From positions 372,001 through 436,000 of the forward strand of contig JAPETS010000017.1 of assembly GCA_026023565.1 (NCBI GenBank): 64,000 bases of DNA, written 5' to 3'. A program made the translations under genes and the position numbers. The stretch is from Cirrosporium novae-zelandiae. Lineage: Eukaryota. Every line of letters begins with the position of its first letter. Within the stretch, counting starts at the first letter, position 1. Shown one piece after another: positions 7,304 through 23,921 of this stretch. Below the pieces are notes generated by a model that saw only the letters and a program-made list of their open reading frames with translations, did no database searches and was not told the origin of the DNA.

Positions 7304-9318
7304 ATGTTCTCTATATGGTTCAACACGTTCCTTATCTCCGCTCTTCTATTCCCTGCATGGGCGGTTTCTTCAGAATTCAATGATGATGACGACCTAGCTA
7401 CATTCGTATCAGCAAGTTACCCTTTTGTATTTATTTGCTGTTGTTCCCCTACCAAGCTAACATTCCCCTGCAGCGGCCAGATTTAAGGCCCCCTATTTTC
7501 AGTGTTACCACTCATAAGCATGACATCACGCCTGGATATTGGTTCACTACTCCCTACGACAACTTATATGGAGCTCATGGAGGAGACAGATACGAGACAT
7601 GTCAAGTAGGCCCTCACATATATGATAATGACGGAAATCTCGTATGGAGCGGAGCATGTCTAGACAAAAACCGGCCTGTTGTTGATCTTAAAGTATTCTC
7701 CAAGGAGGACGGCTCATCTTTTATCTCATTTTTGCTAGCCGCCGACAACCATCAAGAGGATAAACGAGGAGTGGGATGGATCCTGGACAACACTTACACC
7801 CTCAACAAGACTGTTTACTGGCGTAAGGAGGACGAACCTGGCAATTTTAATATGCATGAATTCAATATTGTCGATGGGGGGAAATCTGCTCTAGTGATAA
7901 TTAGCGAATTCCGATCGACTGACATTTCTGCCCTTCCGCGAAAATCTGGGGAGGGTTTAATATTCAACAACGGGTTCCGGGAACTCGACGTTGAAACTGG
8001 CGATGTGAAATTCGAATGGATGGCTCTTGATCACATACCTATTACGAGGAGCAAAGCTCCTATGCCTGTCAAATTTGGCGAGAAAAATTCTGGATCCTGG
8101 GATTATATTCACATGAATTCGGTGGATAAGAATGCCAAGGGTGACTATCTTATTTCCGGTCGACACATATGTGCTATTTACAAAATATCTGCAAAAGATG
8201 GGCACATCATATGGCAACTAGGAGGCTACGGTTCTTCGTTTAAATTGGACAAATTCGATTTCTGCTTCCAGCATGATGCTCGACTGCGATATGAGAGCGA
8301 GGATGAGTCGATCGCAATAGTATCATTCCTGAACAATGCGGCCGATAAAACTGATCAAACAGAGAAGCATTCCTCGGCATTACTAGTAAAACTCAACATG
8401 ACCTCGATGGTAGCAACCCTCATAAATGAATGGGACAGGCCGGATCATGGGATAACCAGGAAACGAGGCAATGTTCAATTCCTCGATGAGAGTAACCATA
8501 CTTTTGTCTGTTGGAGTGAGAATAGCTATGTGAGTGAATACACTCCGGATGGTAAGATGGTGCTAGAAGCGCGGTTCAATTCGGATCGTTTTGGAACGTA
8601 CAGGACCTACAAGTTCAATTTCACCGGCCGTCCGACGGAGCCACCCGCCCTAAAAGCTTATACTTATGGGTCACATAGAGATACCAAAACGGTTCATTAT
8701 GTGAGCTGGAATGGAGCGACGGAGGTCGCGTCATGGAGTTTTTACGGCAAACAAGATCATGCAACATCTTCCCCATGGACCTTCATTGGTAGTACCAACA
8801 AAACAGGGTTCGAGACTCGGTTCATCGCTGATGGATACATGAGATATGTGATGGTCGAAGGTGTAGCCAAAGATGGGGAAAGATTGGGTAATTCCACAGT
8901 GGAAAGAACCACCATCCCTCCTTTATTGGTATCTTCTTCTACCCACGCTTCCAACCATATTCCTATCAAGAACAGTACCGAGAACTCTGCATCACAACCT
9001 CAATCCATGATACTTAAACTTCGGATTAGTAGTTTGATTCACGAAGTCCGGACTTGGTTGACCGCATTTGTGGTCGCTTGTGGTCTCTGTGTCCTGATAC
9101 TTTTGGCTGGATTCATTTATTACTGCTGCCTTCGACGCCGGCTGCATATGTATCAGCCATGTGAAGATGGCTACTCGTCGGTGGAGGGTCAAGAACGAGG
9201 AGAAATGGGGTCTCCCGTAGGGGACATGAAATCAAGAGAGAGCTTATATGAGAGCACGGGGCTTTTAAGCGGTGAGAATGAGGATGACCATCATCCTCAG
9301 GGAGAGGTAAAGAGTTAA
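7304..9318 (+). CDS. Arylsulfotransferase (ASST-like beta-propeller) with signal peptide and C-terminal TM anchor
   Basis: Exon 1 7304-7411, GC-AG intron 7412-7473 giving FVS|RPDLRPP; motifs MHEF, WDYIHMNSV, FQHDAR, VSWNGATEV; hydrophobic helix near the C-terminus. Confidence 0.85.
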
Positions 9319-12107
9319 ATATACTGGTGGCTGGCTACTTTATAGACGTGTATAGATATTAAAATGTAAAACTAATTTCAAATCCAAGGGGCTTCGGACC
9401 ATAACCCAACCACCGTTGGGATGATTCTTTTTCGAGCGAGAACCAATCATTTCTCGATCTCTATATAACCCAATAATCTTCACCTACCTTTGATAGTCGC
9501 TAGACTTAAGTTAAGTCGCAGGACCAGCTAGCTGCTGACAGACGGTAATGCAGGGTGCTTAATTATGACAAGCTTTAGCTGTACAACAACGCCTTTTAAC
9601 TGGATCAAGTTGGGTTGGGGTATCCCTTTTCATTTGGCGGTGCCAGTGTAGAGATGGACGTAGAGGAATTAATCCTTGTCTTTTCCATATGATTTTGAAC
9701 CGGTAGACTAACAGACGTCGTTTTCAAGTCTCAAACTTCACCATTTGTTCCCTATCATCGAATATTGCCGTTGCGAACAATCATGACGTCACTAATAAAT
9801 ATCAAACAACAACTTTTTTTTACCCTTTCCATATTTATTTTCTACATTGATTTTTTTTTATAAACTAATTTTTGGATGGAAAGGAGTGGGGTTTTGTATA
9901 CCAATGGAAAAGATGAAAGTTATGTTACATTAATTGAGAGATTATGAGATTCATTGCTGAGGTTTGCTAGTATGAAGGACTTCTAGGTTTTCCAAACAAA
10001 ACTACATGCATGTATGATCAAGTTATTATTTATCATCGAGGATTTAATCCGTTAACCAGCATCTGCAAAAAAAAAAACAAAAGTCTGGCGGGTTTTTGCT
10101 ATGGAATAATTATGTGACAAGAATGTTTCCCGTCCCGTCCCTCAATTGTTTACTTATTAATCTGTTTACTATTAATATATATCTACCTCTCTGCTTATTT
10201 ATCCAAAAATATTTCCAACTTCTAATTCCGCTTAACTGAATTCCCTCCATTCCATTACTGCAGTCGGTACCTCTTCACTGCACACGCCCAACTTCAGAGA
10301 ATCCAAATTCGAAAAAAAAAACACACGCGTGGATGCTGGCTTCTGTAGGGGGGTTTTGTCAGAAAAAGATAATATCTTGACGGGTTCTACAGTAGGTCTA
10401 TACATTAGAGCATCTAGCTAGACCTCCGGCTATAATCGTCCCGTACCATACCATACCGTTCCTTTCATGAAAAAAAAAAAGAAACTCCAACAATCGATCC
10501 CCCGGACCACCGAATTGATATATCTATAGGTACACCAAACAGCGAAATCCACATTCCTACTCACTCATAAAGGCCTCAACTCAAATGTTTACTAGCGCGG
10601 CAATGTTGCAAGAATATTAACTCTTACTCTACGGGTTATGCCATGAGTATGAAGACTAGTCGGGGGCGTGATTTATGACATTGTGTGGATAATCAAAGAG
10701 CTGATCACTCCACTCCATTATAGTACTATATCCTCTAGAGTAGGTACTGTAGCAGTATTAAAGTCATCTTCTGCAGCATAATATGCTCATCTATTTATGG
10801 AGAGAGGAGGAGAATCTTAGATGTCAGGATTGGATTATGTATGCGTCCCTCCTCCCTCCCCCTGCGGTTCTATCCATAATCATAATCATTTGACTCCTCC
10901 GAGGATATCCTACCTAGCCACCACCATCATCACAATATCCTACCAACTGCACACACCGCCAATGGGCGAATGTTATCGAGATCAGTAAAAACACCTGTAC
11001 ACACCAAGGGTCTTAAGACTATGCATATCTCCATAGTACTGTAAACCTGAATATATATATCCAGCAGTCGGCAGTCGTTCGATAGCTAGAGAGAGAGAGA
11101 GACCCAAGAGAGAGAATTAATTCTCTCGTAGAAATAAAATAAATAATATAACATGACATGACATGATACTCCGGGGGATTGGGGATTGGGGATTGCCTGT
11201 TTTTTTTTCTCTTTGATTCTTTGTGTATCCTTAAATAAACCAACCCCCCCTTTCATAATATCTAGATAGATAGATACCTTAGGATGGAATGATGAATAAT
11301 AAAAATTTACAATTCACAACTTAAAACCCCCGAAATGATGGATCTTTAAGGGATCTAAAAAGCTTTAGCTGAGCATATGTATATGCATATTTTCTACCTT
11401 CCTTCGAACCTTCAAACTAGGAGGGGAAGGAAAAACTCAAACTCAAGCTCAACTTTTTCTCACTCCGAGGCTTCTTCTCTTTTCTTCTTCTTCTTCATCA
11501 TCATCATCTAAGTCAGTCGGTTGGTCAACTCCATTTTTGGGGGCCGGGGGGGAGGGGGGTAAATTACACAAAAATGCCAGATATCTATGATAAAAGAAAA
11601 GAAAAGAAAAGAAAAGATTACTGTAGGTATGTAAGTATGAGGGGGGGTGCGGATGACCCAAGATATGTCCAGGTATTCAAGGTTCCCGTACCCGAAGTCC
11701 CGAGGAGCGAGCATCTCATTCGTATCTCGATTAATTATCTTCCGATCCTTGATCCGCTTCCGCTTCCGCACCCGTACCCTCCTTTTTTCCCTCATTCATT
11801 TATCACACACCCTCCACGATGGATATGCAGGCGTGAGAACTTGGGACAGAACAACGCTGCCGAATATGTAGGTAGACGTGAGAACTCGGATAAACCTGCT
11901 ACTTTGTCGGTGGCAATTGAAAAGTGTGATAAGAAAGTGGGTGTGGTCCCCTCACTCAAATAGGCCCAGGTAGAATAGAAGACAATATATACATTTCCAA
12001 CCATTTTAATTTTTTTATTTTTGTGCCTTGTTTGTGTATAGCTTATATCTAAAAGGCCTTTGACTGCTGATACGCCGAGAGGTCGGTATCTAGGCTTTCT
12101 GAGAATC

Positions 12108-13555
12108 ATGCTTGATCCGCTGTATCATCTACTCGAGGAGGTATATGGGGTCTCGAAAAATGGATTCCTTCCGGCTCACCAACCCCTAAAATGCCTTCCG
12201 GATCGGTACTATCAGCCTTGGGAAGCCATAGTCGGCAGACTACCAGCCTTGCTACTTGTTGACGACAGATTGAGAGGAGAGGTTGACGATTTAGAGATAC
12301 TTATAACCTCGAGGCTGCATAGGGAAGAAGAATGGCAGAGAGCATATCTCTTACTTGGACTCCTGACCCATGCTTACATTTGGGGAGGAGAAAAGCCGGC
12401 AGAAGTCAGTAGTTAGGCCCTGGCTATATTAACTAAGGATTTTCTGAATCTGACCAGTGCTTTAAAAAAAGAAATTGCCGCCGTCGATAACCGTTCCGTT
12501 CTTGGAAGTTTCAGCTTATCTAGGTCTTCCGCCAACGGCGACGTACGCGGCTCTGAGCCTGTGGAACTTCCAAAGCCTCTCGTCTGATGATATTGACCTC
12601 ACCAAGCCAGAAAACTTGGGTATCCTGCATACCTTTACAGGATCACCAGACGAAGCATGGTTTTATATAATTTCGGTGGCCATAGAAGCCCGCGGTGCGC
12701 CAGCTATTCCTCTGATGCTCAAGGCGATCGACGCCGCTCGAGAAGATAAGACCGCAGTAGTCGTAGAGAGCCTGAATATGGTCACCACCTGCATTAGGGA
12801 CCTTGAAGTGCTGCTTGAGAGGATGCACGAAAACTGTGACCCGCATGTATTCTACTATCACATCAGACCATATTTGGCTGGAACAAAGAACATGGCAGCT
12901 GCTGGGTTACCTGCTGGGGTATTCTATGATGAAGGTTTTGGAAAGGGCCGGTATAGGCAATACAGCGGTGGAAGCAACGCGCAGAGTTCTTTGATACAGC
13001 TTTTCGATATCTTTCTTGGAGTGGAGCATCGTTTCACCGGAACCAAAGCTTTAGGAAAGGAGTCGAAGAACAAGGAGCATGCATTTATCAAGGCAAGAAA
13101 CAAGCTGAGATTTCGGAAATATGCTGTATATATCAAAGACTGGTTGCTGATTTAAAACACAGGAAATGCGGGATTACATGCCTGGCAAACACAGAAACTT
13201 CCTGCAATATGTTACCTCTGTCGCAAACATCCGCAGCTATATAGAGAGCCGTCCATCAAACCGCGATCTTAAAGAGGCATACAACGCAACGGTAGAAATG
13301 CTTGGCACGTTCAGAAATCAGCACATCCAGATTGTTACACGATACATAATTCTCCCTTCGAGGAAATCTTTGGAAGAGCAGTCGCGTCGTCAGAATATTG
13401 CAAGTGCTTCATCTCGGAAAAAACTATTATCGAAAGAGAGCGAAGAGCCACCATCACAGGATTTGCATGGAACAGGAGGAACAATGTTGATTCCTTTTTT
13501 GAAACAGACGAGGAATGAGACAAAAGATGCAAAGGTAATTCTCAGGCGAGACTAA
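12108..13555 (+). CDS. BNA2: Indoleamine 2,3-dioxygenase
   Basis: Exons 12108-12404, 12472-13092, 13163-13555; motifs NGFLP, LGLPP.ATYA, TFTG..DEAWFY, GGSNAQSSLIQ, EMRDYMP..HR, HIQIVTRYI, GTGGT.LIPFLKQ.R. Confidence 0.95.
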
Positions 13556-13898
13556 GCCATGTCTCTCTAATAAATTAATATCCAATTGTGACTGAGCGGT
13601 ATTTTCGTCCCATAATGCGGTTGAATGGGTCAAAGCTTTAGTAGTGATGCTGGCGTTTCTTGACTTGGAGATCTTTTATGCCTCTTGTTTTCCTAGTCGA
13701 CTATTTCGATAGATGCGGTTTGGTAGATAATGAACAAAGTTCGCTATTATATGATCAATAAGTTTAAAGTGCTATGCCCATATAGAATGTTAATCTACCA
13801 GTCATGGTGAAGCTAGGAGTTAGTAATAGAAATCTAGGGGTTACCAAAATTCTCGTAGGGACCAAATCCAATAGAATTTAGTATATTGAGCAATTGTG

Positions 13899-14915
13899 TC
13901 ACTTCTTCAATTTCTTCACTGCTAGAGCAATCGTCGAAGCTATTTGCTTTCCATTCTCCCACAACTCGTCATGGGCACCTTCTAGGTCTGTCACGCTGAT
14001 GACTTCTAGGGTTGGTTGTTTGGGAGGCAGGTTTTCTAGTCGCGTACGCATCATTTTTATTTGCGCCGGCTCAATAAGCCCATCTGAGACCGAGTGAGCT
14101 ATAATTACTAGCTCACCCGATGGCCATGTCTTATCGAAGGAAGTGTGCCTCGCTGGGGATACGTGATCCCAATCTTCTTCGTCAACACCGAAAGCGCCGA
14201 CTATGAATTCGTGGTAGACCGACGCATCTGCATAGTTATCTCGGAGAACTCTGATGTCATAGATCCCCGATATGCCAACAATCGCTTTGGGCATCGCAAT
14301 CATAGACCTGGTCGGGAGGCAAAGTTCCCTCTCTTCAGATTTATCAGGTTCCTTTTCTTGAAGAATTAGGTCTCCCATGGCTATCTGGAATGCCAATGTA
14401 GCCCCACAAGAATGCCCAACCAAGATGTAATTGTTTTGGAATTCATATGTGTCCTGCAAAAATGCTATAGCAGCATGTACGTCATGTACGTGATCTGGGT
14501 GACGAGCATTGCGGAGGTTGAAAGAGGTTGTTGAATGGCCATGTTGAGGGAAATCTGGATGTTCCGACAAGCGGTAGTCCAATGATGCAACAGCGGCAAT
14601 ATCAGTAAGGACGTCTCCACTATGGGAAGTAAGCAAATGGTTGAGGGTTGGCGCAAAAGAAGTGCTTGTAATTAAAGGATCGCGCCAGGCTCCGCCGTGG
14701 ATATAACTTTGCTCAAATATGTCAGCGAGAGTGAAAATGGGGAGGGAGGAGAAGGCAATTTGGCTATACATTATCCAGAACTTGGATGTGGGTTTGTCCG
14801 AAGATGGGGGGTGAATGAACCAGAGCGATAATTTCTGGAGTTCGTGATCGGTGCCATAACGGTGTTCAACGTGTTTGGGATATTCTGATCCAGGAGGCAG
14901 TGAAGTAGTAGCCAT
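13899..14915 (-). CDS. BNA7: Kynurenine formamidase (alpha/beta hydrolase)
   Basis: YIHGGAWRDP, DYRLS, HPDH..DV, GHSCGATL nucleophile elbow, GIYD, HDE.W; one in-frame intron near 14710-14770. Confidence 0.9.
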   Translation of the reverse strand: MATTSLPPGSEYPKHVEHRYGTDHELQKLSLWFIHPPSSDKPTSKFWIMYSQIAFSSLPIFTLADIFEQSYIHGGAWRDPLITSTSFAPTLNHLLTSHSGDVLTDIAAVASLDYRLSEHPDFPQHGHSTTSFNLRNARHPDHVHDVHAAIAFLQDTYEFQNNYILVGHSCGATLAFQIAMGDLILQEKEPDKSEERELCLPTRSMIAMPKAIVGISGIYDIRVLRDNYADASVYHEFIVGAFGVDEEDWDHVSPARHTSFDKTWPSGELVIIAHSVSDGLIEPAQIKMMRTRLENLPPKQPTLEVISVTDLEGAHDELWENGKQIASTIALAVKKLKK

Positions 14916-15430
14916 AGCAGAGTAGAGTTGAGGGGAGACCAAAATTACACTATTCAAATTGCAAACTCGTTCTTTGTCGATATCATGACCTAATAGCGGA
15001 CCATTAAGGTAAACTGATGGCGTCTTTAGAAGGCCTACAACAATTAATTAATTACAGTGCTGCTACCACAGTATTCGGCCCATGTATGATATCCATGTTC
15101 GGTAAGTTCTCGTCTCTGATAAGATCTCTCGTTCCCCTTCCAAACTTCAACCTCTACACCCTACTAGTAGTTCTCACACCTTCTCACTTTCTAGTTCTTA
15201 ACCGTGTTATCTATCATGGTTGGAAAAGAGGTTGACGTTGCAATTGTTGGTGGTGAAATAACAGGTGTTACCTTTTCGCGTATTGAATGACTGGGGGTAT
15301 CGGCTTACCACTTGTATTGACTTATCGCCCTGCTTACCGTTTCTTCGTCTTTGAATTTCCTTCCATCCAAATTCAATGGTTTCCAATTCATATATATTGC
15401 TACTTATCTCACATATGCAGATGCCATCAG

Positions 15431-17853
15431 ATGCCACCCGAAGAAACTGGAGGAAGGTCGTATGTTAGGCGTCGCGTTGCCGCCGCATGCAGTTCCTGTA
15501 AAGCCCGCAAAGTCAAATGCGATGGCCAGCTACCATGTGCATATTGCAAAAGGCGCATGCGCCCAGATTCCTGCAAATATTTGCCCCATCATCGCCGAGG
15601 TTTTCCATATACGTCGCCAACCTCATCTATTGAGTCCTTGCATCCGTCCAATTCAACTGGCCCTGATATCCTCATAGCTGCTCCGATTGACCCTCCTGGA
15701 GCTAATGGTGATTCCAAAGCCGAGGAGGAGACTATTGTTCCTAGAGAAGGCCGACTATTATGTGATGGCCAGGGAAAACTCAGCGTTTTCATAGGTGATT
15801 CTGCCCCACTGTCATTTTTGCAGACGGTTCGGCAATTGATTACCACTCGAATTGGACAGACGGTCCTCACGAACAATACACCTCGTGATTATATGATTGA
15901 GCATATACCAGCAAAGCAGGCATCAATTCCAAAGCCCAATGACCTCATTGTGACTCCGGAAAGGGCAGAGCCTATGATATTATCTTACTTGTCAGCAGTA
16001 AGTTGCATAGAACCGGTAAACCCTTTTCAAAATACTAATAAATATTTTATCTAGACGAGTGGAATGCTGGATGTTTTCAATTCTACAGACCTAATTGATA
16101 GTATTCTTGCATGGTCATCGGTAGAAAACCAAAAGACCGAGAACCTTACATCTGCTGTTAATTACCTTGTTCTTGCCATTGGTTGTCAAGCTAAAGACGA
16201 ATACCAAGCTGAAATTTTCTTTAATCATGCTCGAGACATTGCTCTTAGAGGTCTTGGTGAAAACCTAAGCATCTCTACTGTCCAGGCCTTCGCCCTTGTT
16301 ACCATGTACATGCTTGCCGCTTGCGAGGGAAATGGAGCCTTTATTTACTTTGGTGAGTAGCATGTTTAGGTTGTAGCTAGAGAGATTGTATGTTTGGCTC
16401 ATTGGTTTGATAGCACTGGCGGTAAGAGCTGCGTACTCTATCGGTATTCACAGAACTGAAATAAATGCTGTTTTCGGTCCTTCGACGCACAAATTAAGGT
16501 ATTTAGGCCAATATCATTCCTTATATCCGGAAATTTTGTTTTCTAACTCTGAATCTTGAAATGACATAGAGATCGTCTTTGGAAAAGCCTCCGTATACTA
16601 GACATATTTCTCAGCTCATCTTTAGGCAGGCCACCGGCAACTTCCGATATTGACTGCACTGTGCTATACAAAACAATGAACAAGGCAGAGGAGAAAACGT
16701 CCATTTTGGATGCTTCTGTGCAAATATTTCTAATCATTGAGCGTGTTATAGTTGAAATTTATTCGAGAAAGCAGATATCTCTACAGTTGGCCGAAAGTAT
16801 ATCCCACCATCTTCGGGATTGGGCAACAAATTGGTTGCAACGACTTAGAAACAGCGTAAAAGTTTGTCCTAGCAGCCCAGAAAGACCGAACCAGGGCGAA
16901 GTTATTGGAGCCTGTCAGGCCTTGTGCTCATACTACTACGCAATAATGCTTTTAACAAGGCCATTCCTGTTGTATGAACTAAATAGACGATTATCAACTT
17001 CGGCAATGTCAACGGGTATCCAAGGCTCCTCGGGCCAACCGAACGGAGACACCGAAAAAGCCAAATTTGCGGATGCCTGCATCGACTCCGCTACTCTCTT
17101 GGTGGATTTGGTTCAAGATCTGATAGAAAGAAGGATGCTACCATGGAGGATGCCGTTGGTTGTGTAAGTTTCGGCTAGCCTTTTTTTGGTTGTTGTTTTA
17201 TATAGCATTGTATCTGAGGTAGTACTAATATCACTAGATCCTGGCTTTTTACCACATCCCTCGTTTTAGGGCTTGCTCTCCTGGGGGATTTTGGCCGTAT
17301 TTTTGAGAAATATGCGGGTGCTTCCATTCATTCTCTTGAATATTTCGCTAAAAGAGACCCACACGCTCTTCAATACTCTTCGATCGCCAAATCTTTAGTA
17401 GCAACCGCCCTAGAACATTTAGAGAAGAAGGAACTTCAAGAGCGTCACCAGAGGATTGAGAGTACTTCGCAACTTTTTGGCCTCATCCATGGACAAGGAG
17501 AAGAACAGCCAGTACGTCTAGCTCCCAAGCAGCTAGAGCCGGATTTTGCGAATGGGGGCAATGAGCAAAATGGGGTCTCAAATACCAGGCGAGGAATTAT
17601 AGAGGCTGGTGTTCCAAACAATAGTCAAGGAAGTTTACAATCGATCCCAGATGTTATACCACCTGACTGGACGGGTCTGGATATGAGCAATCCGGCAGAC
17701 TACCTGACTTTATCGGGAGGTCTAAGCCATCATACCGAGTTTTCGGACGATGTAAATCTCGGCGATGGGCAGCATGATTTGTTCGGAGAGCTGTCTCTTT
17801 TTCCAGTATTTGAAGCGAGTGAGACATTTGATTTTGGTCATACTATCACGTGA
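15431..17853 (+). CDS. Zn(II)2Cys6 transcription factor with fungal_trans middle domain
   Basis: ACSSCKARKVKCDGQLPCAYCKRR...C; exons 15431-15997, 16055-16352, 16414-16498, 16570-17163, 17238-17853 splice in frame; AVRAAYSIGIH, RDRLWKSL, LLTRPFL motifs. Confidence 0.92.
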
Positions 17854-17961
17854 ATGCCATGGTTGTCGTTAAAGCAACCACATTTTAAGCGAATTTTGCT
17901 TCACAAAATGATGTCATGTCAATTGGCAAAGGCAATACACACGATGACGACATAGCCGCCG

Positions 17962-18060
17962 CAGGTGACGACCAACTTGCATAGTCTATCCCGAGTCTGT
18001 CACGCTATTCAGCTAATTAACTCAGTTGTTCTTTTGTATTTGTTCGGGAATTCATGTTAT
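17962..18060 (+). repeat. 99-bp direct repeat, copy 1 (matches endosulfine last codons and 3' UTR)
   Basis: Ungapped match to 18609-18707 with 9 mismatches by manual count. Confidence 0.95.
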
Positions 18061-18134
18061 GCTAGACACAGTGCATTCGCAACCATAACGTTAACCAGCC
18101 ATCAGATTGGATACCGCGATTCATAATTACTGAA

Positions 18135-18631
18135 ATGGAGCCTCACCCACACGACAGTGTCGACACTAATGTATGTCTATGCGTCTAGGGAGTTTTGTAA
18201 TAAAATGGTGCTTATACTCTGATTAAGCCTGTTACTGAACAGGAAAAACGGTTCTTCCACCTCTATGGAAAGAAGCCCAAAGGCTTACTTCAAAACCAAC
18301 TAAAGGTGCTCTCGTCTTCTTCGATCTATAATAACGAACTAATAAATATTCACAGGGAGGGGCACGGAAATATTTCGATTCCGGTGACTTTGCTCTTACC
18401 AGAGCCCATAAGAGTACTGATGTTGGTGCCATCGAGACTGGGAAAGAGCATCCTCTTGCTAAGAACATCTCTCACCCGTTTTCTCCTATACCTAGCGGCA
18501 GCAATGTCAACAAAGCCACAGATGGACAATCTCAAGTTAAAGAGGATACGGCTGCTGTGAAAGGGATCCATCTTCTCCATGGGACGAATCTAAACAATGA
18601 AGTGGCCTCAGGTGGTAACCAACTTGCATAG
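18135..18631 (+). CDS. IGO1: Endosulfine / cAMP-regulated phosphoprotein (Igo1/ENSA/ARPP-19 family), 129 aa
   Basis: Exons 18135-18170, 18228-18305, 18356-18631 (phase 0); MEPHPHDSVDTN|PVTEQEKRFFHLYGKKPKGLLQNQLK|GGARKYFDSGDFALTRAH...GKEHP; family signature RKYFDSGDFAL. Not in the ORF track. Confidence 0.9.
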
Positions 18632-18707
18632 TCTATCTCGAGTCTGTCACGCTATTTAGCTAATTAACTCAGTTCTGCTTTTGTGTTTGTTCGGGAATTT
18701 ATGTTAT
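18609..18707 (+). repeat. 99-bp direct repeat, copy 2
   Basis: Matches 17962-18060; contains the endosulfine stop codon. Confidence 0.95.
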
Positions 18708-19098
18708 ATTTCATAAAGACACGTGCTCTTTCGGCGCCCGAACCAACTTAAATTGTATAAAAGCAATTCTTAGACTTAGATCCTCTACATCTTTACAACT
18801 TCACTTCTTTGTTCTTAACATTTGGTAGCATGTCCTTGGAAAAGTAAAGTCCACCACCATTTCAAACCATCCAACCATCCCCACCACTATCCATCATAGC
18901 GAGGTTTTCCCCTGGTTATTTCATCTATCTCATCTGCAAGAAGTGGTTTCACCTTGCTCGTCACCTTATTGCATGCATATGCATGTGAATGTGACTCATC
19001 CACTCCACATTTCCCATCATTATTACTATACTCGCGCAAAAGGCGAGCCATAAACGAGGCAGTGAACCCTCTAACATCAAATATCAAGCTTCAACATC

Positions 19099-19476
19099 AT
19101 GTCTGAACAATCCATTGCTTGGCCTATTGCCGATCAGGCCGTCGCCCAAACCTTCCTCAATCTTGTTCAACGAGCCTCTCATTACCGCCAGCTTAAGAAA
19201 GGCGCGAACGAAGTTACCAAAACCTTGAATCACCGTACCTCGGAAATAATCATTCTTGCTGCTGATACATCTCCTTTAGCCATTATCCTCCCTCTCTCCT
19301 TAGCCGCGGAAGATAAAAATATATCCTACGTTTATGTTCCAAGCAAGATGGCTTTAGGAAGAGCATGTGGAATTAGTCGACCAGTTATAGCGGCAAGTAT
19401 CACGACAAATGAAGGTAGCGAGTTGAAAAGCCAAATTCAAGCTCTGAAGAATACGGTGAAGGAACTGATGATTTAA
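19099..19476 (+). CDS. SNU13: Snu13/15.5K (L7Ae family K-turn RNA-binding protein), divergent copy
   Basis: AWP.AD, YRQLKKGANE, AADT.PLAI, EDKN..YVYVPSK.ALGRACG.SRPVIAAS; possible upstream mini-exon 18830-18843 with intron 18844-19088 in frame. Confidence 0.9.
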   Translation: MSEQSIAWPIADQAVAQTFLNLVQRASHYRQLKKGANEVTKTLNHRTSEIIILAADTSPLAIILPLSLAAEDKNISYVYVPSKMALGRACGISRPVIAASITTNEGSELKSQIQALKNTVKELMI

Positions 19477-19953
19477 GCTGTTTTCAAAACCTAACAAGTA
19501 GAGCTTGTAGTGTTTTTGGTGAGCAGGAATAAAGGGGTGAACGGTGATTTTGGAGACAATGATTTCGAAGTTCAATACACATAGCAACTTTGGGATTTGT
19601 CTTTGACTCTAATTTGTAATGTTATGAATATCAAATTTGCATTTTACAGAATGAGAGAGCAGTGAAACCAAACAATTGATGATGATAGTTGAATCCTTGC
19701 CAGTGGCGTTTTTATATTTTGCAATGCTCCAAAATGCTAGATAATGGCTCCGGCCCTACCCCGCCCCCCAATATTATTGATAATATACACGCCCCGGCTC
19801 TTAATTATTGATAACGCCGGGATGGCTTTCCGATTCGGACTCCCTTACTAATGTCGACATTGCGACAGAACATGGGTTGCTTTTTCTGTTCCATCTATAT
19901 ATACAATAGGCTCAACCCACGTTAATTGTCTAAGACATTTGCCAACACCGAAA

Positions 19954-21360
19954 ATGACAAGCATATTTCTGTAAGTGCTGTGAAAAAATATTCCTTCTTC
20001 CGCTGGCGTAAGACTAATTTTTTTATGTATTCTTTAGCACAGGAGCCACGGGATACATTGGAGGATCCGTCCTCCAGACTCTAACAACCGTTCACCCCGA
20101 ATACAACATCTCGGTTCTAGTGCGTAATGCGGAGAAAGCAACTCAGATTTCGAACCTGTTCCCTCGAGTGCGGATAGTAACAGGAGACTTGGATGGTCTT
20201 GATTTAATTGAGAAGGAGGTCCAAGAGGCAGATGTCACGATTCGTATGTCTAGATGAGAAAAATATTTATTTACTGTTGTTCCTGTCCCCTTGAGACATA
20301 GGACTGTGCTAACATGTACGATGTGGGATCGTTTACGGTTAGATGTCGCAAGTTCCTCCCATCGGCCCAGCATTGAAGCCATCGCACGCGGTCTCCAGAA
20401 GAGAGCAGCAACCAACAAATCAAACCCAGGTAAGCCAGCCTCTCCATCATCCTCATCCTCATCCCCCGTTTCACATCCACAAAATCCCACTCGTCGCACG
20501 CTCAAAAATCCCAGGCTTCTGGCTCCAGATCTCGGGTGCAAGTATTCTGTCCTACCCAGACATTTCATCAAATAGCTATGGCGAAGCCTCTTCACACATA
20601 TACGACGACCTCACCGGCCTATCCGAAGTTACATCTCTCCCAGACACGTACCTACATCGGCTGAACCAGAAATTTGTTCTTGATGCTTCATCCCCAGCGC
20701 CCTCTCTCATTAAGACCGCATTGATTGCCCCACCGATCATCTATGGCGCCGGCACCGGTATCCAGAAGCGGAGCGTCCAGATTCCGGAGCTAGCACGGGT
20801 GACGATCCAGGAAGGCCATGGAGTGCAGGTTGGGAAAGGATTGAGTGTGTGGCCCAACATCCACATCGAAGATGTAAGCCGTCTCTTTTTGCGGTTAGTC
20901 GAGGAAGCCGTCGTCTCCGGGTCCCCAGAAACGTACAAGGGGAATCAAGAAATATGGAATCAAGGTGGATATTATTTTGCCGAAAACGGCAACGAACTGG
21001 TACGTTTAAACTGAAAAAAAACCCCCCGATATCCCCCCTCCCCTTTCATTTCTTACAATTTTTTAAACGATCCCTCATCCCTCGTCTCACTTACTGTAGC
21101 CATGGACAAAAATCGCAACTATAATTGCAAACTCCGCACACGCGTCCAACCTAATCAAGGATCCCACGGCCATTGAATCCATCACCGCAGAGAGAGCCAA
21201 CGCGCTAACCCCACACGGAGCCCTTCTCTGGGGTACGAATGCTCGCGGGCGTGCATTGAGGGCTAAGGGGCTGCTTGGTTGGAAGCCAATTGGGAAGAGT
21301 TTGGAGGAGGAGATTCCAGAGACTGTGAAGGTGGAGGCGAGGGGATTGGGTTTGGTCTGA
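19954..21360 (+). CDS. NAD(P)-dependent epimerase/dehydratase (extended/atypical SDR)
   Basis: MTSIFL|TGATGYIGGSVL Rossmann motif, PPIIYG.GTG, RSVQIP, W.NIHIEDV, WGTNARGRA..A..LLGW.P; several introns. Confidence 0.88.
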
Positions 21361-22555
21361 TATGATTTTAACGTAAGAGTAACGGTAAAAGCAAAAGTGC
21401 TTGTTTGTTTGTTTGTTATTCGGTGAGACTTTACACGGATTATGGGGTTTTCGGGAAGGGATTTCGAGAGAGAGATGGTTCAAGACGTTGAGGAAGGAGG
21501 ACTTGATGGTTAATGAATGTAGTCAAGCGAGTAGGGTTTTTTTCTTTTTTGTACCAATGAAAAGTCCGGAAGGCTCTAGATATCCATCCACAATTACACT
21601 CCCCATTCCCTATAAGCACACTGGCGACTAGGATACATCCATCACACGAACTACCCATCCATCCATATATGCACACACACACCCAATACCTAACAACCCA
21701 ACCAACAGTAAATTCTCATAGTAACCAGTCAGTCCAGTCACCACATACGACATCCAATATGCAATATACTATACCTAATAATATAAATAAATAACCCCCC
21801 ATCAAAAAAAAAAGCCTAAAAGAGAGGGAAAAAATAAGAAAGGTCAAGTTTAATTACTGTAGCAAAAAATACTATCTAATTATACTCTATATTTATTTAA
21901 CATCATTTACATTTACATCATCAACCCCTAACCTAGCTATTTCATTAGTAGTTAATAAGTAACAATAATCAAGCACCCACTTTAAGAACCAGAAAGAAAA
22001 AAATTAACTGATTAATTAATTACAAACAAGGACTCCCTTTTGTCGTTTCTTCTAACCACAGTAAAGTAGATAAGTAACTAGATAACAAGATAACGAGATA
22101 CAGTAAGCGCAAAACAAACCCCCCGAGGTTGAAATAAATAAATAAACAAATATTAGATAATACCTTCTATACGTAAAATACACACAGATACGAAAAGACG
22201 AAAAACAAAAATTACCATCATGTCATCATAATCTATCCTAGTTACTCTAGTTTAGATACCAGATCTCTTTTCTCTTCGGTGCTTTTCCTTTTTCCCTTTT
22301 CCCTTTCGGTTCTTTTCCCTTCCTTTTCGGTTCTTTTTTTAAACCCGATCCCTACTTCTTTCAGTCAACTGAAAACCAGACAATTAGAGAAGGAAAAGAA
22401 AAATGAGAATACAGAGAGAGAGAGAGTACACAGACCTTACCTACTTACTTACTACCTATACCTGACCTGACCTGTATTTGTTGTATACATACATACTCAT
22501 TTTTTTGATATATATACATACCGAAATTAAAACGAACGAATAACCGAAACCGAGA

Positions 22556-23921
22556 ATGTCGTCGTCGTCTTCTCCCCCCTCTTTCATAATCCAATTCACG
22601 AATTTTGTGAATGATGCTGGTGAGCCCCATCCCTTCTCTCCAAACTCCCACCTTAACCTCCCCTTCCAAACAGCCGGACTAGAAAAAACCCTCCGCCTCC
22701 TCCAAGCAACCTCCCAATTAACCGCTAGCATCCTCTCTTCCCCCACCTTCTCCTCTTTCTTCTCTTCCTTCCTATACTCCTATATTTTCCAATCCCCATC
22801 CCCCACAGATCTAGATCTGATAGACATGCAAAAACACGTCACAACAGCCCTAACACTACGGAAACAATTCGCATTGGGTCGACGATATTTTCGATATTTT
22901 AAATGGATTAATTGTGCGGTTTTGGCTGGGGGGGAGTTGGGGAAGGATGGGGATAGGAAGGGTGGGGGTGGGGAAAGTGGGGATGATGGTGGGATTGGAG
23001 TTAAAGCTGTGCTAAAGGCAGCGAGATGGTCGTTTTTGGGAATGTATTTGTTGGTTGAGGGGTTTACTATTGTAAGTACAAATATGTGCTGCGCATAGCG
23101 TACACCTACCTACCCGAGGGCGTACATGTACGTGTACCTTATGGTGTGGGTGTTTTTGGTTCTCGTTCTTGTTTTGATTTTTTGACCTTCTTCTTTCTTT
23201 CTTTTTCCCCGAGTTGGGAATGGGGAAACCTCATTCGATTATTCCAATCCCATCCTATCCCTCCCATTCTTATTCCTCCCATTCATCATCACCCCTCCCA
23301 AAAAAAGAAACACCAAACTAACCACCATGTCCCCTCCCCTCCCCTGGGCGGTCCCCTAAAAAACAGTTCGATGCAATGGGACTTAAAAAATCATCTTGGG
23401 CACCCATGTATACGATTGAGGCGATGCGGTTTTGGTTCTATTCGCTTTGTTGTTCGATTTTGATTGGGGTTGGGGAGGTTTTGGATGGATGGGGGAGGAG
23501 GAGGGAGATGGAGAAGGGAATGGTGGGGGATGGGGAGAAGAAGGAGATGGAGATGGAGATGGAGATGGATGAGAAAGGGGAAAGAAATGATGACGAAGAT
23601 GAAGATGAAGACGATAACGACCATGCCGATACCGATGAAAAACAACCCCATATCCATCCCCACCACTACACGCACATCGAAACCTCACCCCCCCTCCAAA
23701 AACCCGCCCTCTCTCACCCTCACCTCCAGTCCCACCCCCCAAAACACCCTCAAAACCATCTAACCCCCCTCCACCGACAACTTCTAATAAGCATCTTTGA
23801 CCTTCCAATTCCCGGCTCAGTGGTGGGGTGGATTAATATCGGAGATGGCTTTGTGGCACTGAGTAGTATCACGAGTGCGGTTATTAGTGGGAGGGAGATT
23901 TGGAGGAGGGTTAATAGTTAA
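22556..23921 (+). CDS. Peroxisomal biogenesis factor Pex11-family protein
   Basis: F.ND|AAGLEKTLRLLQA, LRKQFALGRRYFRYFKW, EAMRFWFYSL, DLPIPGSVVGW, REIWRRV; introns after about 22619 and 23071. Confidence 0.75.

What the first reader, a model, noticed from the sequence alone, without database searches (positions are those of the whole stretch)
12108..21360. Candidate regulated cluster coupling tryptophan/kynurenine catabolism to an endosulfine and a Snu13 copy
Seen: IDO(+), kynurenine formamidase(-), Zn2Cys6 TF(+, divergent from the formamidase), endosulfine(+), divergent Snu13(+) and extended SDR(+) are packed with gaps of about 0.3-0.5 kb and flanked by longer AT-rich spacers. Established: IDO and formamidase catalyse consecutive steps (Trp to N-formylkynurenine to kynurenine); endosulfines are Rim15/Greatwall substrates that inhibit PP2A-B55 and promote quiescence; Snu13 binds K-turn RNAs. 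Inference: a TF-driven module linking O2- and Trp-dependent metabolism (NAD precursor supply or Trp depletion) to dedicated copies of quiescence and RNP proteins, i.e. a dormancy, hypoxia or self-protection cassette. I do not know of a characterised cluster with this content.
Basis: partly seen in the sequence, partly recalled or inferred. Interest (0 to 1): 0.8.

Follow-up and report, generated by a model that had tools for sequence, protein, structure and literature searches.

The report
Eroded tryptophan-breakdown cluster with passenger genes
This fungus keeps two genes of a known tryptophan-breakdown cluster and a likely regulator, has lost the cluster's third enzyme, and has picked up unrelated neighbours, one of them a reverse-transcribed copy of a housekeeping gene, so there is no sign of a special dormancy module.

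Summary
All six genes are real, but they are not one module. The same order (KYNU, IDO, formamidase) is intact in a Helotiales-like contig, and IDO-beta and formamidase carry consecutive accessions in 8 of 15 named taxa (all 8 Helotiales). The Zn2Cys6 gene is a plausible pathway regulator: its relatives lie beside formamidase plus 2,3-dihydroxybenzoate decarboxylase, or beside an intradiol dioxygenase, but at about 30% identity. Snu13 is a processed retrocopy of the three-intron SNU13 on another contig, changing at near-neutral rate at conserved sites. The endosulfine belongs to a widespread second paralog class, sits between 103-bp direct repeats, and canonical IGO1 lies elsewhere. Neither appears beside formamidase in 80 other loci. 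No expression data were available. Verdict: variant of a known catabolic cluster plus passengers; the quiescence/RNP cassette is unsupported.

The parts
10470..10557 (-). Kynureninase (kynU2) relic: 15 in-frame codons of the DFAVWC(T/S)YKYLN motif with K read as R, then a frameshift; the rest of the gene is gone. The 10470 end is approximate.
   Evidence: tblastn with the L031 kynureninase 41.6 bits against at most 25.4 in 100 shuffles; 31-nt match at 87%; also found by the whole-genome search, E 5.5e-4
12108..13555 (+). Indoleamine 2,3-dioxygenase, beta type; introns 12405-12471 and probably a GC-AG intron 13093-13162
   Evidence: PF01231 526 bits; tree; proximal His and GGS.AQS loop align to human IDO2; splice options
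13899..14915 (-). Kynurenine formamidase (BNA7 type), only close copy in the genome; 63-nt in-frame intron 14707-14769
15431..17853 (+). Zn2Cys6 transcription factor, divergent from the formamidase; candidate regulator of aromatic/Trp catabolism
   Evidence: PF00172; relatives' neighbourhoods
17958..18060 (.). 103-bp direct repeat, copy 1; a copy of the endosulfine's last 8 codons, stop and 3' flank
   Evidence: 90% identical to copy 2
18135..18631 (+). Endosulfine of the second fungal class (FDSGDF), 129 aa, exons 18135-18170, 18228-18305, 18356-18631; only 74 bp of unique DNA between repeat copy 1 and its ATG
   Evidence: P0241; PF04667; 57% to the genome's Igo1 over 67 aa
18605..18707 (.). 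103-bp direct repeat, copy 2, overlapping the endosulfine's end
18996..19491 (+). Processed retrocopy of SNU13: 103 nt of 5' leader, intronless ORF 19099-19476, 15 nt of 3' flank
   Evidence: three introns (53, 63, 79 nt) of the G000:C97 gene precisely absent; 331 of 378 nt and 93 of 103 leader nt identical
19954..21360 (+). Extended SDR (NmrA-like), one of a multi-copy family; probably unrelated neighbour
   Evidence: five other matches in the genome at 29-44%

Best explanation
Two unrelated things sit side by side. (1) An old tryptophan-catabolic cluster, originally kynU2 <- -> idoB -> <- formamidase, that turned excess Trp into anthranilate. Here kynU2 has decayed to a ~90-bp relic, so the linked genes make only kynurenine, and the unlinked kynureninase on contig C1 must take it on towards anthranilate or NAD. 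The divergent Zn2Cys6 gene most likely regulates this or a related aromatic-catabolic step (about 0.4; inferred from neighbourhoods only). (2) Passengers between the TF and the SDR: a second-class endosulfine at a site rearranged recently enough to leave 103-bp repeats at 90% identity, and a reverse-transcribed SNU13 mRNA now drifting with little selection. Shown: gene content, relic, conserved IDO-formamidase adjacency, retrocopy origin. Inferred: Trp induction, the TF's role, common ancestry of the order, lack of function of the passengers.
For: Relic at the expected place and strand: motif 1553 bp from the IDO start, against 1405 bp in L031. L031 has KYNU, IDO and formamidase in the same order and orientation. 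Consecutive accessions for IDO and formamidase in 8 Helotiales taxa. idoB-kynU2 is a widespread Trp-induced divergent pair (PMC11530996, section 15 part 1). TF relative in L084 lies between formamidase and 2,3-dihydroxybenzoate decarboxylase, and its best match in G000 is the window TF, E 1.7e-20 against 6.3e-6. The TF's own paralog on C118 lies beside an intradiol dioxygenase. SNU13: precise loss of three introns, homology ends at transcript-like limits; 31 reverse-transcriptase matches in the genome; 24 replacement and 23 silent differences fit omega 0.7-1.0 on the copy, not 0.3. Endosulfine or Snu13 near formamidase in 0 of 80 loci.
Against: TF identity to L084 is only 30-35%; for exon 4 the C118 paralog scores as well (89.4 against 89.7 bits); orientation differs; L031 has no such TF; L084 and L085 are one lineage. 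The IDO tree is a quick tree and gives the window IDO no strongly supported clade. The SNU13 copy's frame is still open (chance about 0.35 under neutrality, indels not modelled), and no poly(A) tail or clear target-site duplication was found. No close relative of this fungus could be examined.
Confidence: 0.75

Rival explanations
1. One reading: the TF co-regulates IDO, formamidase, endosulfine and Snu13 as a dormancy, hypoxia or self-protection module.
For: Tight packing; separate housekeeping IDO-alpha, IGO1 and SNU13 exist; endosulfine keeps the FDSGD serine; Snu13 frame is open; A. fumigatus idoA and idoB are hypoxia-induced (PMC7844877 passages).
Against: Snu13 is a retrocopy: at 11 of 23 changed positions the parent matches both Chaetomium and yeast Snu13 and the copy differs, and at none does the copy match both (my count). 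Endosulfine class is widespread. 0 of 80 other formamidase loci carry either gene.
Confidence: 0.05
2. The enzyme cluster is real but the TF is only a neighbour; IDO-beta is controlled from elsewhere or has become weakly regulated after kynU2 loss.
For: Low identity to L084 TF, different orientation, absent from L031; no CGG pair in the 503-bp stretch scanned between formamidase and TF; the genome's closest 2,3-dihydroxybenzoate decarboxylase has other genes beside it and no match to the window TF.
Against: All three contexts seen for this TF family are aromatic catabolism; only 2 members of the family in G000, so chance linkage to formamidase in two lineages is unlikely.
Confidence: 0.45
3. 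Formamidase joined idoB-kynU2 independently in this lineage and in Helotiales (convergent clustering) rather than by shared ancestry.
For: Adjacency missing in Eurotiales and Sclerotiniaceae examined; window formamidase does not group with the Helotiales ones, which also argues against recent transfer.
Against: Same side and same orientation as L031 (1 in 4 by chance); patchy loss is equally compatible.
Confidence: 0.3
4. The intronless Snu13 is a young functional retrogene with a changed role (relaxed or positive selection).
For: Open frame, start and stop kept, no indel in 378 nt; pairwise dN/dS 0.29; omega 0.7 fits slightly better than 1.0 (0.25 against 0.19).
Against: Pairwise 0.29 is what a neutral copy and a constrained parent give once transitions are allowed for; changes include R45H, G46R, H65P, P67S, P76S at sites shared by parent, Chaetomium and yeast.
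Confidence: 0.2

Closest known systems
idoB-kynU2 divergent gene pair of filamentous ascomycetes (A. nidulans ANIA_01858/01857; PMC11530996)
   Same: IDO of the beta grade with kynureninase sequence upstream on the opposite strand at a matching distance
   Different: Kynureninase reduced to a relic; formamidase tail-to-tail with IDO and a divergent Zn2Cys6 gene, neither mentioned in the section read
Helotiales KYNU-IDO-formamidase locus (L031; Cadophora, Leptodontidium, Rhexocercosporidium, Drepanopeziza, Phlyctema accessions)
   Same: Same order and orientation in L031; IDO and formamidase consecutive in the named genomes
   Different: KYNU intact in L031, no TF of this family, no endosulfine or Snu13; KYNU not checked in the named genomes
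3-hydroxyanthranilate catabolic cluster of Aspergillus terreus (PMC7842363)
   Same: Fungal cluster of kynurenine-pathway steps
   Different: Holds the lower steps (3HAO, ACMSD, AMSDH), none present here
Processed retrocopies (review PMC5470649)
   Same: Precise intron loss, transcript-like limits, new location
   Different: No poly(A) or target-site duplication seen; the review says retroposition is little studied in fungi
Igo1/Igo2, ENSA/ARPP19 endosulfines
   Same: PF04667, K-Y-F-D-S-G-D core with the serine
   Different: FDSGDF class, a second paralog beside canonical Igo1; function of this class not found in the one search made (listing only)

Membership tests
idoB-kynU2 locus | IDO of the beta type, not alpha or gamma | tested here: met
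   Outside the 99%-supported clade holding the long IDOs and the C38:244k copy; the C98 copy is far distant; placement among short IDOs not strongly supported (quick tree); beta label seen on a short Sclerotinia IDO
idoB-kynU2 locus | Intact kynureninase gene divergent from IDO | tested here: not met
   Only a frameshifted ~90-bp relic at the right place
idoB-kynU2 locus | Induction by tryptophan from a shared promoter | not testable with these tools
   No RNA run listed
Kynurenine formamidase (BNA7 type) | HGGAW motif, GHSCG nucleophile, Asp and His of the triad | tested here: met
   Invariant columns in alignment A1; homolog names; activity not tested
Processed retrocopy | Precise absence of the parent's introns | tested here: met
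   3 of 3 GT-AG introns absent
Processed retrocopy | Homology limited to the transcript; no parental promoter | tested here: met
   93 of 103 nt upstream, then 29 of 97; ends 15 nt after the stop; true transcript ends unknown
Processed retrocopy | Poly(A) tail and target-site duplication | tested here: not met
   Only three 6-nt chance-level repeats, no tail; copy is 3'-truncated or old
Endosulfine (Greatwall/Rim15 substrate) | FDSGD(Y/F) phospho-acceptor motif | tested here: met
   FDSGDF; F in 64 and Y in 51 of 149 relatives
Endosulfine (Greatwall/Rim15 substrate) | Phosphorylation and PP2A-B55 inhibition | not testable with these tools
   needs biochemistry
   0 of 80 loci; 28 loci in 23 lineages had at least 5 kb on that side; no close relative available
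Pathway-specific Zn2Cys6 regulator | Conserved linkage of an ortholog to the pathway genes | tested here: inconclusive
   2 of 80 loci, one lineage, 30-35% identity, one-way best match

The most novel reading that the evidence does not exclude
After kynU2 was lost, the TF-driven IDO-formamidase unit captured two young neighbours, a second-class endosulfine whose own promoter was replaced and a SNU13 retrogene with altered RNA-binding surface, so that Trp or kynurenine now feeds directly into PP2A inhibition and ribosome-biogenesis slowdown. Nothing here shows this, and only expression data can exclude it. A milder and likelier novelty (about 0.4, interest 0.5) is that this Zn2Cys6 family is the so far unnamed regulator of fungal Trp-to-anthranilate catabolism.
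Probability: 0.05. Interest if true: 0.7.

Novelty: new variant of a known kind. Interest (0 to 1): 0.3.

Why it matters
It extends the known idoB-kynU2 pair to a three-enzyme cluster in at least two distant lineages, catches it in decay, and names a testable candidate for the regulator of Trp-induced IDO expression, which I did not find described in the papers searched. The SNU13 copy is a clean fungal retrocopy. It also shows how passengers next to a real cluster can mimic a regulatory cassette. None of this is very surprising to a specialist.

Tried and rejected
RNA: no RNA holder listed, so expression is untested. Run X1 contigs gave no cover for most of 9300-11626, including the relic and the end of the neighbouring ASST gene; the tool says a hole proves nothing. 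Endosulfine search for longer relatives: 0 of 38 candidates. Earlier findings: nothing in 4 look-ups. SDR linkage to formamidase: seen in 6 of 80 loci, all one lineage, 22-39% identity, below the 43-44% of the genome's own paralogs; rejected as evidence. Recent horizontal transfer from Helotiales: not supported, best hits Xylona 44% and Capronia 66%, no grouping in either tree. CGG-pair scan: 7 pairs upstream of IDO, 5 before the SDR, 0-1 in the other gaps, no control run, uninformative. ESM Atlas named only endosulfine and generic fungal TF clusters. Assembly artefact for the 103-bp repeats: not supported. Paper searches returned 0; terms written with a space in place of the comma in '2,3-' may not have matched, so searches are weak.
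Full report
Setting. The window is G000:C38:372001-436000 in a 31.4-Mb, 128-contig fungal assembly. A database protein identical to the window's IDO carries a Cirrosporium label, class Xylobotryomycetes. No close relatives were reachable: best formamidase homolog 44%, best IDO homolog 66%.

Observation. All six genes exist as described, with gaps of 0.28-0.52 kb. The left flank is not especially AT-rich (GC 0.40 against 0.40-0.42 for internal gaps; right flank 0.35). A contig of run X1, possibly the same source, spans 11627-19202 without differences.

Other copies in the genome. Three IDO loci: this one; one at C38:244k that falls in the 99%-supported clade of long IDOs and has a class-V aminotransferase gene 2.8 kb away (Nfs1-like by my reading; idoA neighbours such a gene in Aspergilli per PMC11530996); and a distant one on C98. 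Two endosulfines: canonical Igo1 on C37 and this one. Two SNU13. One close formamidase, the next match 33-34%. One intact kynureninase, on C1 between an Fe-S assembly gene and DNA polymerase alpha.

The real cluster. A scan with a formamidase alignment gave 207 confirmed stretches, of which the best 80 loci were returned, in 48 lineages at 85% nucleotide identity. One locus, L031 (formamidase 86% to Cadophora), has formamidase tail-to-tail with IDO and a kynureninase divergent from IDO. Searching G000 with that kynureninase hit window 10427-10558 on the minus strand. There, 15 codons of the conserved DFAVWC(T/S)YKYLN motif survive, with the lysine (the PLP lysine, recalled) read as arginine, followed by a frameshift: 41.6 bits against at most 25.4 in 100 shuffles, closer to L031's enzyme than to the C1 enzyme (31.6 bits), and 1553 bp from the IDO start against 1405 bp in L031. 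This is the partner of the published idoB-kynU2 pair, which shares a promoter, is Trp-induced and is common in ascomycetes (PMC11530996; I read passages and part 1 of 2 of section 15). Locus tags or contig lengths show no adjacency in 6 more (Paecilomyces variotii, Rasamsonia, Thermoascus, Botrytis porri, Sclerotinia borealis, A. nidulans). Among the 80 loci IDO was adjacent in 1, though 47 had at least 2.5 kb on that side. So the linkage is real but patchy. Trees give no sign of recent transfer from Helotiales (both quick trees).

The transcription factor. G000 has two members of this family. A relative lies next to formamidase in L084 and, as a fragment, in L085; these two formamidases are sisters, so this is one lineage. 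In L084 the TF sits between formamidase and a 2,3-dihydroxybenzoate decarboxylase (E 5e-92), a later step of the Trp-anthranilate-catechol route (PMC7842363, passages). L084's TF matches the window TF best in G000, but identity is 30-35%, orientation differs, and for exon 4 the C118 paralog scores equally. That paralog lies beside an intradiol dioxygenase and a family III CoA-transferase. The family looks tied to aromatic catabolism; control of this IDO is inferred, about 0.4.

Snu13. The window copy lacks exactly the three introns of the C97 gene; similarity covers 103 nt before the start and 15 nt after the stop, then stops. Identity is 331 of 378 nt, with 23 residue changes, dN 0.09 and dS 0.31. 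Against Chaetomium and yeast Snu13 (counted by eye) the parent matches both at 11 of the 23 sites, one of them at 6, the copy alone matches one at 1, 2 are mixed and 3 match neither. Simulation with a constrained parent fits omega 0.7-1.0 on the copy (best match rates 0.25 and 0.19; 0.07 for 0.5; 0.003 for 0.3), and a neutral copy would still be stop-free about 35% of the time; indels were not modelled. The genome has 31 reverse-transcriptase matches. No poly(A) tail or target-site duplication was seen. It is a retrocopy under relaxed or no selection.

Endosulfine. P0241, 129 aa, keeps the FDSGD serine. It is 57% identical to Igo1 over 67 residues and belongs to an FDSGDF class: 167 representatives were found, 150 listed, and 99 of the 149 other than itself score closer to it than to Igo1, a count biased by the query. 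Of 10 looked up, 2 had organism names, Paraphaeosphaeria and Aspergillus. It is therefore an old, widespread paralog. It is bracketed by 103-bp repeats at 90% identity, the second overlapping its last 8 codons, leaving 74 bp of unique upstream DNA. Tandem duplication with later loss or integration of a circle would both explain this; I cannot tell which. Neither endosulfine nor Snu13 occurs in any of the 80 formamidase loci (28 with at least 5 kb on that side).

Mechanism. Most likely: excess Trp induces IDO-beta; formamidase, which also serves NAD synthesis as the only copy, yields kynurenine; the unlinked kynureninase continues. A. fumigatus idoB answers to Trp and hypoxia (PMC7844877, passages; PMC5786828, passages). 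The endosulfine, retrocopy and SDR are neighbours by accident.

Literature. I saw no paper describing IDO-beta-formamidase linkage, this TF, or a fungal SNU13 retrocopy in searches (listings only, except the five papers named; PMC5470649 passages). The library lacks most subscription journals; the Yuasa and Ball papers on fungal IDO types were not read and no supplements were opened, so prior mention of the three-gene order is possible.

Verdict. Observation confirmed; interpretation partly supported. New variant of a known kind; interest 0.3.

Noticed in passing
window 13093-13162: IDO intron 2 is probably GC-AG (70 nt); the database model P0121 uses a 37-nt GT intron and so carries 11 extra residues.
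   Followed up: partly
window 14707-14769: The formamidase has an in-frame, stop-free 63-nt intron that the database model P0001 reads through.
   Followed up: yes
window 17958-18060 and 18996-19098: The endosulfine repeats and the SNU13 leader are both about 10% diverged from their partners, so both events may be of similar age, making the TF-SDR gap an insertion-prone site.
   Followed up: no
L084:1712-14681: Cupin, formamidase, Zn2Cys6 TF, 2,3-dihydroxybenzoate decarboxylase and ABC transporter in a row: a possible separate Trp/anthranilate catabolic cluster.
   Followed up: partly
L122:702-7424 (G000:C118): The TF's paralog lies between a family III CoA-transferase and an intradiol dioxygenase.
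   Followed up: partly
G000: Most of the 31 reverse-transcriptase matches are broken by TAA stops, as RIP would leave; one on C3 has a 1080-residue open frame.
   Followed up: no
window 7390-9318 and 22544-23921: Flanking genes are an arylsulfotransferase-like gene and PEX11; no link to the cluster was seen in the 80 loci.
   Followed up: partly
L078, L081, L082, L089, L101, L102: One lineage has an extended SDR and an MFS transporter upstream of formamidase; orthology with the window SDR not shown.
   Followed up: partly
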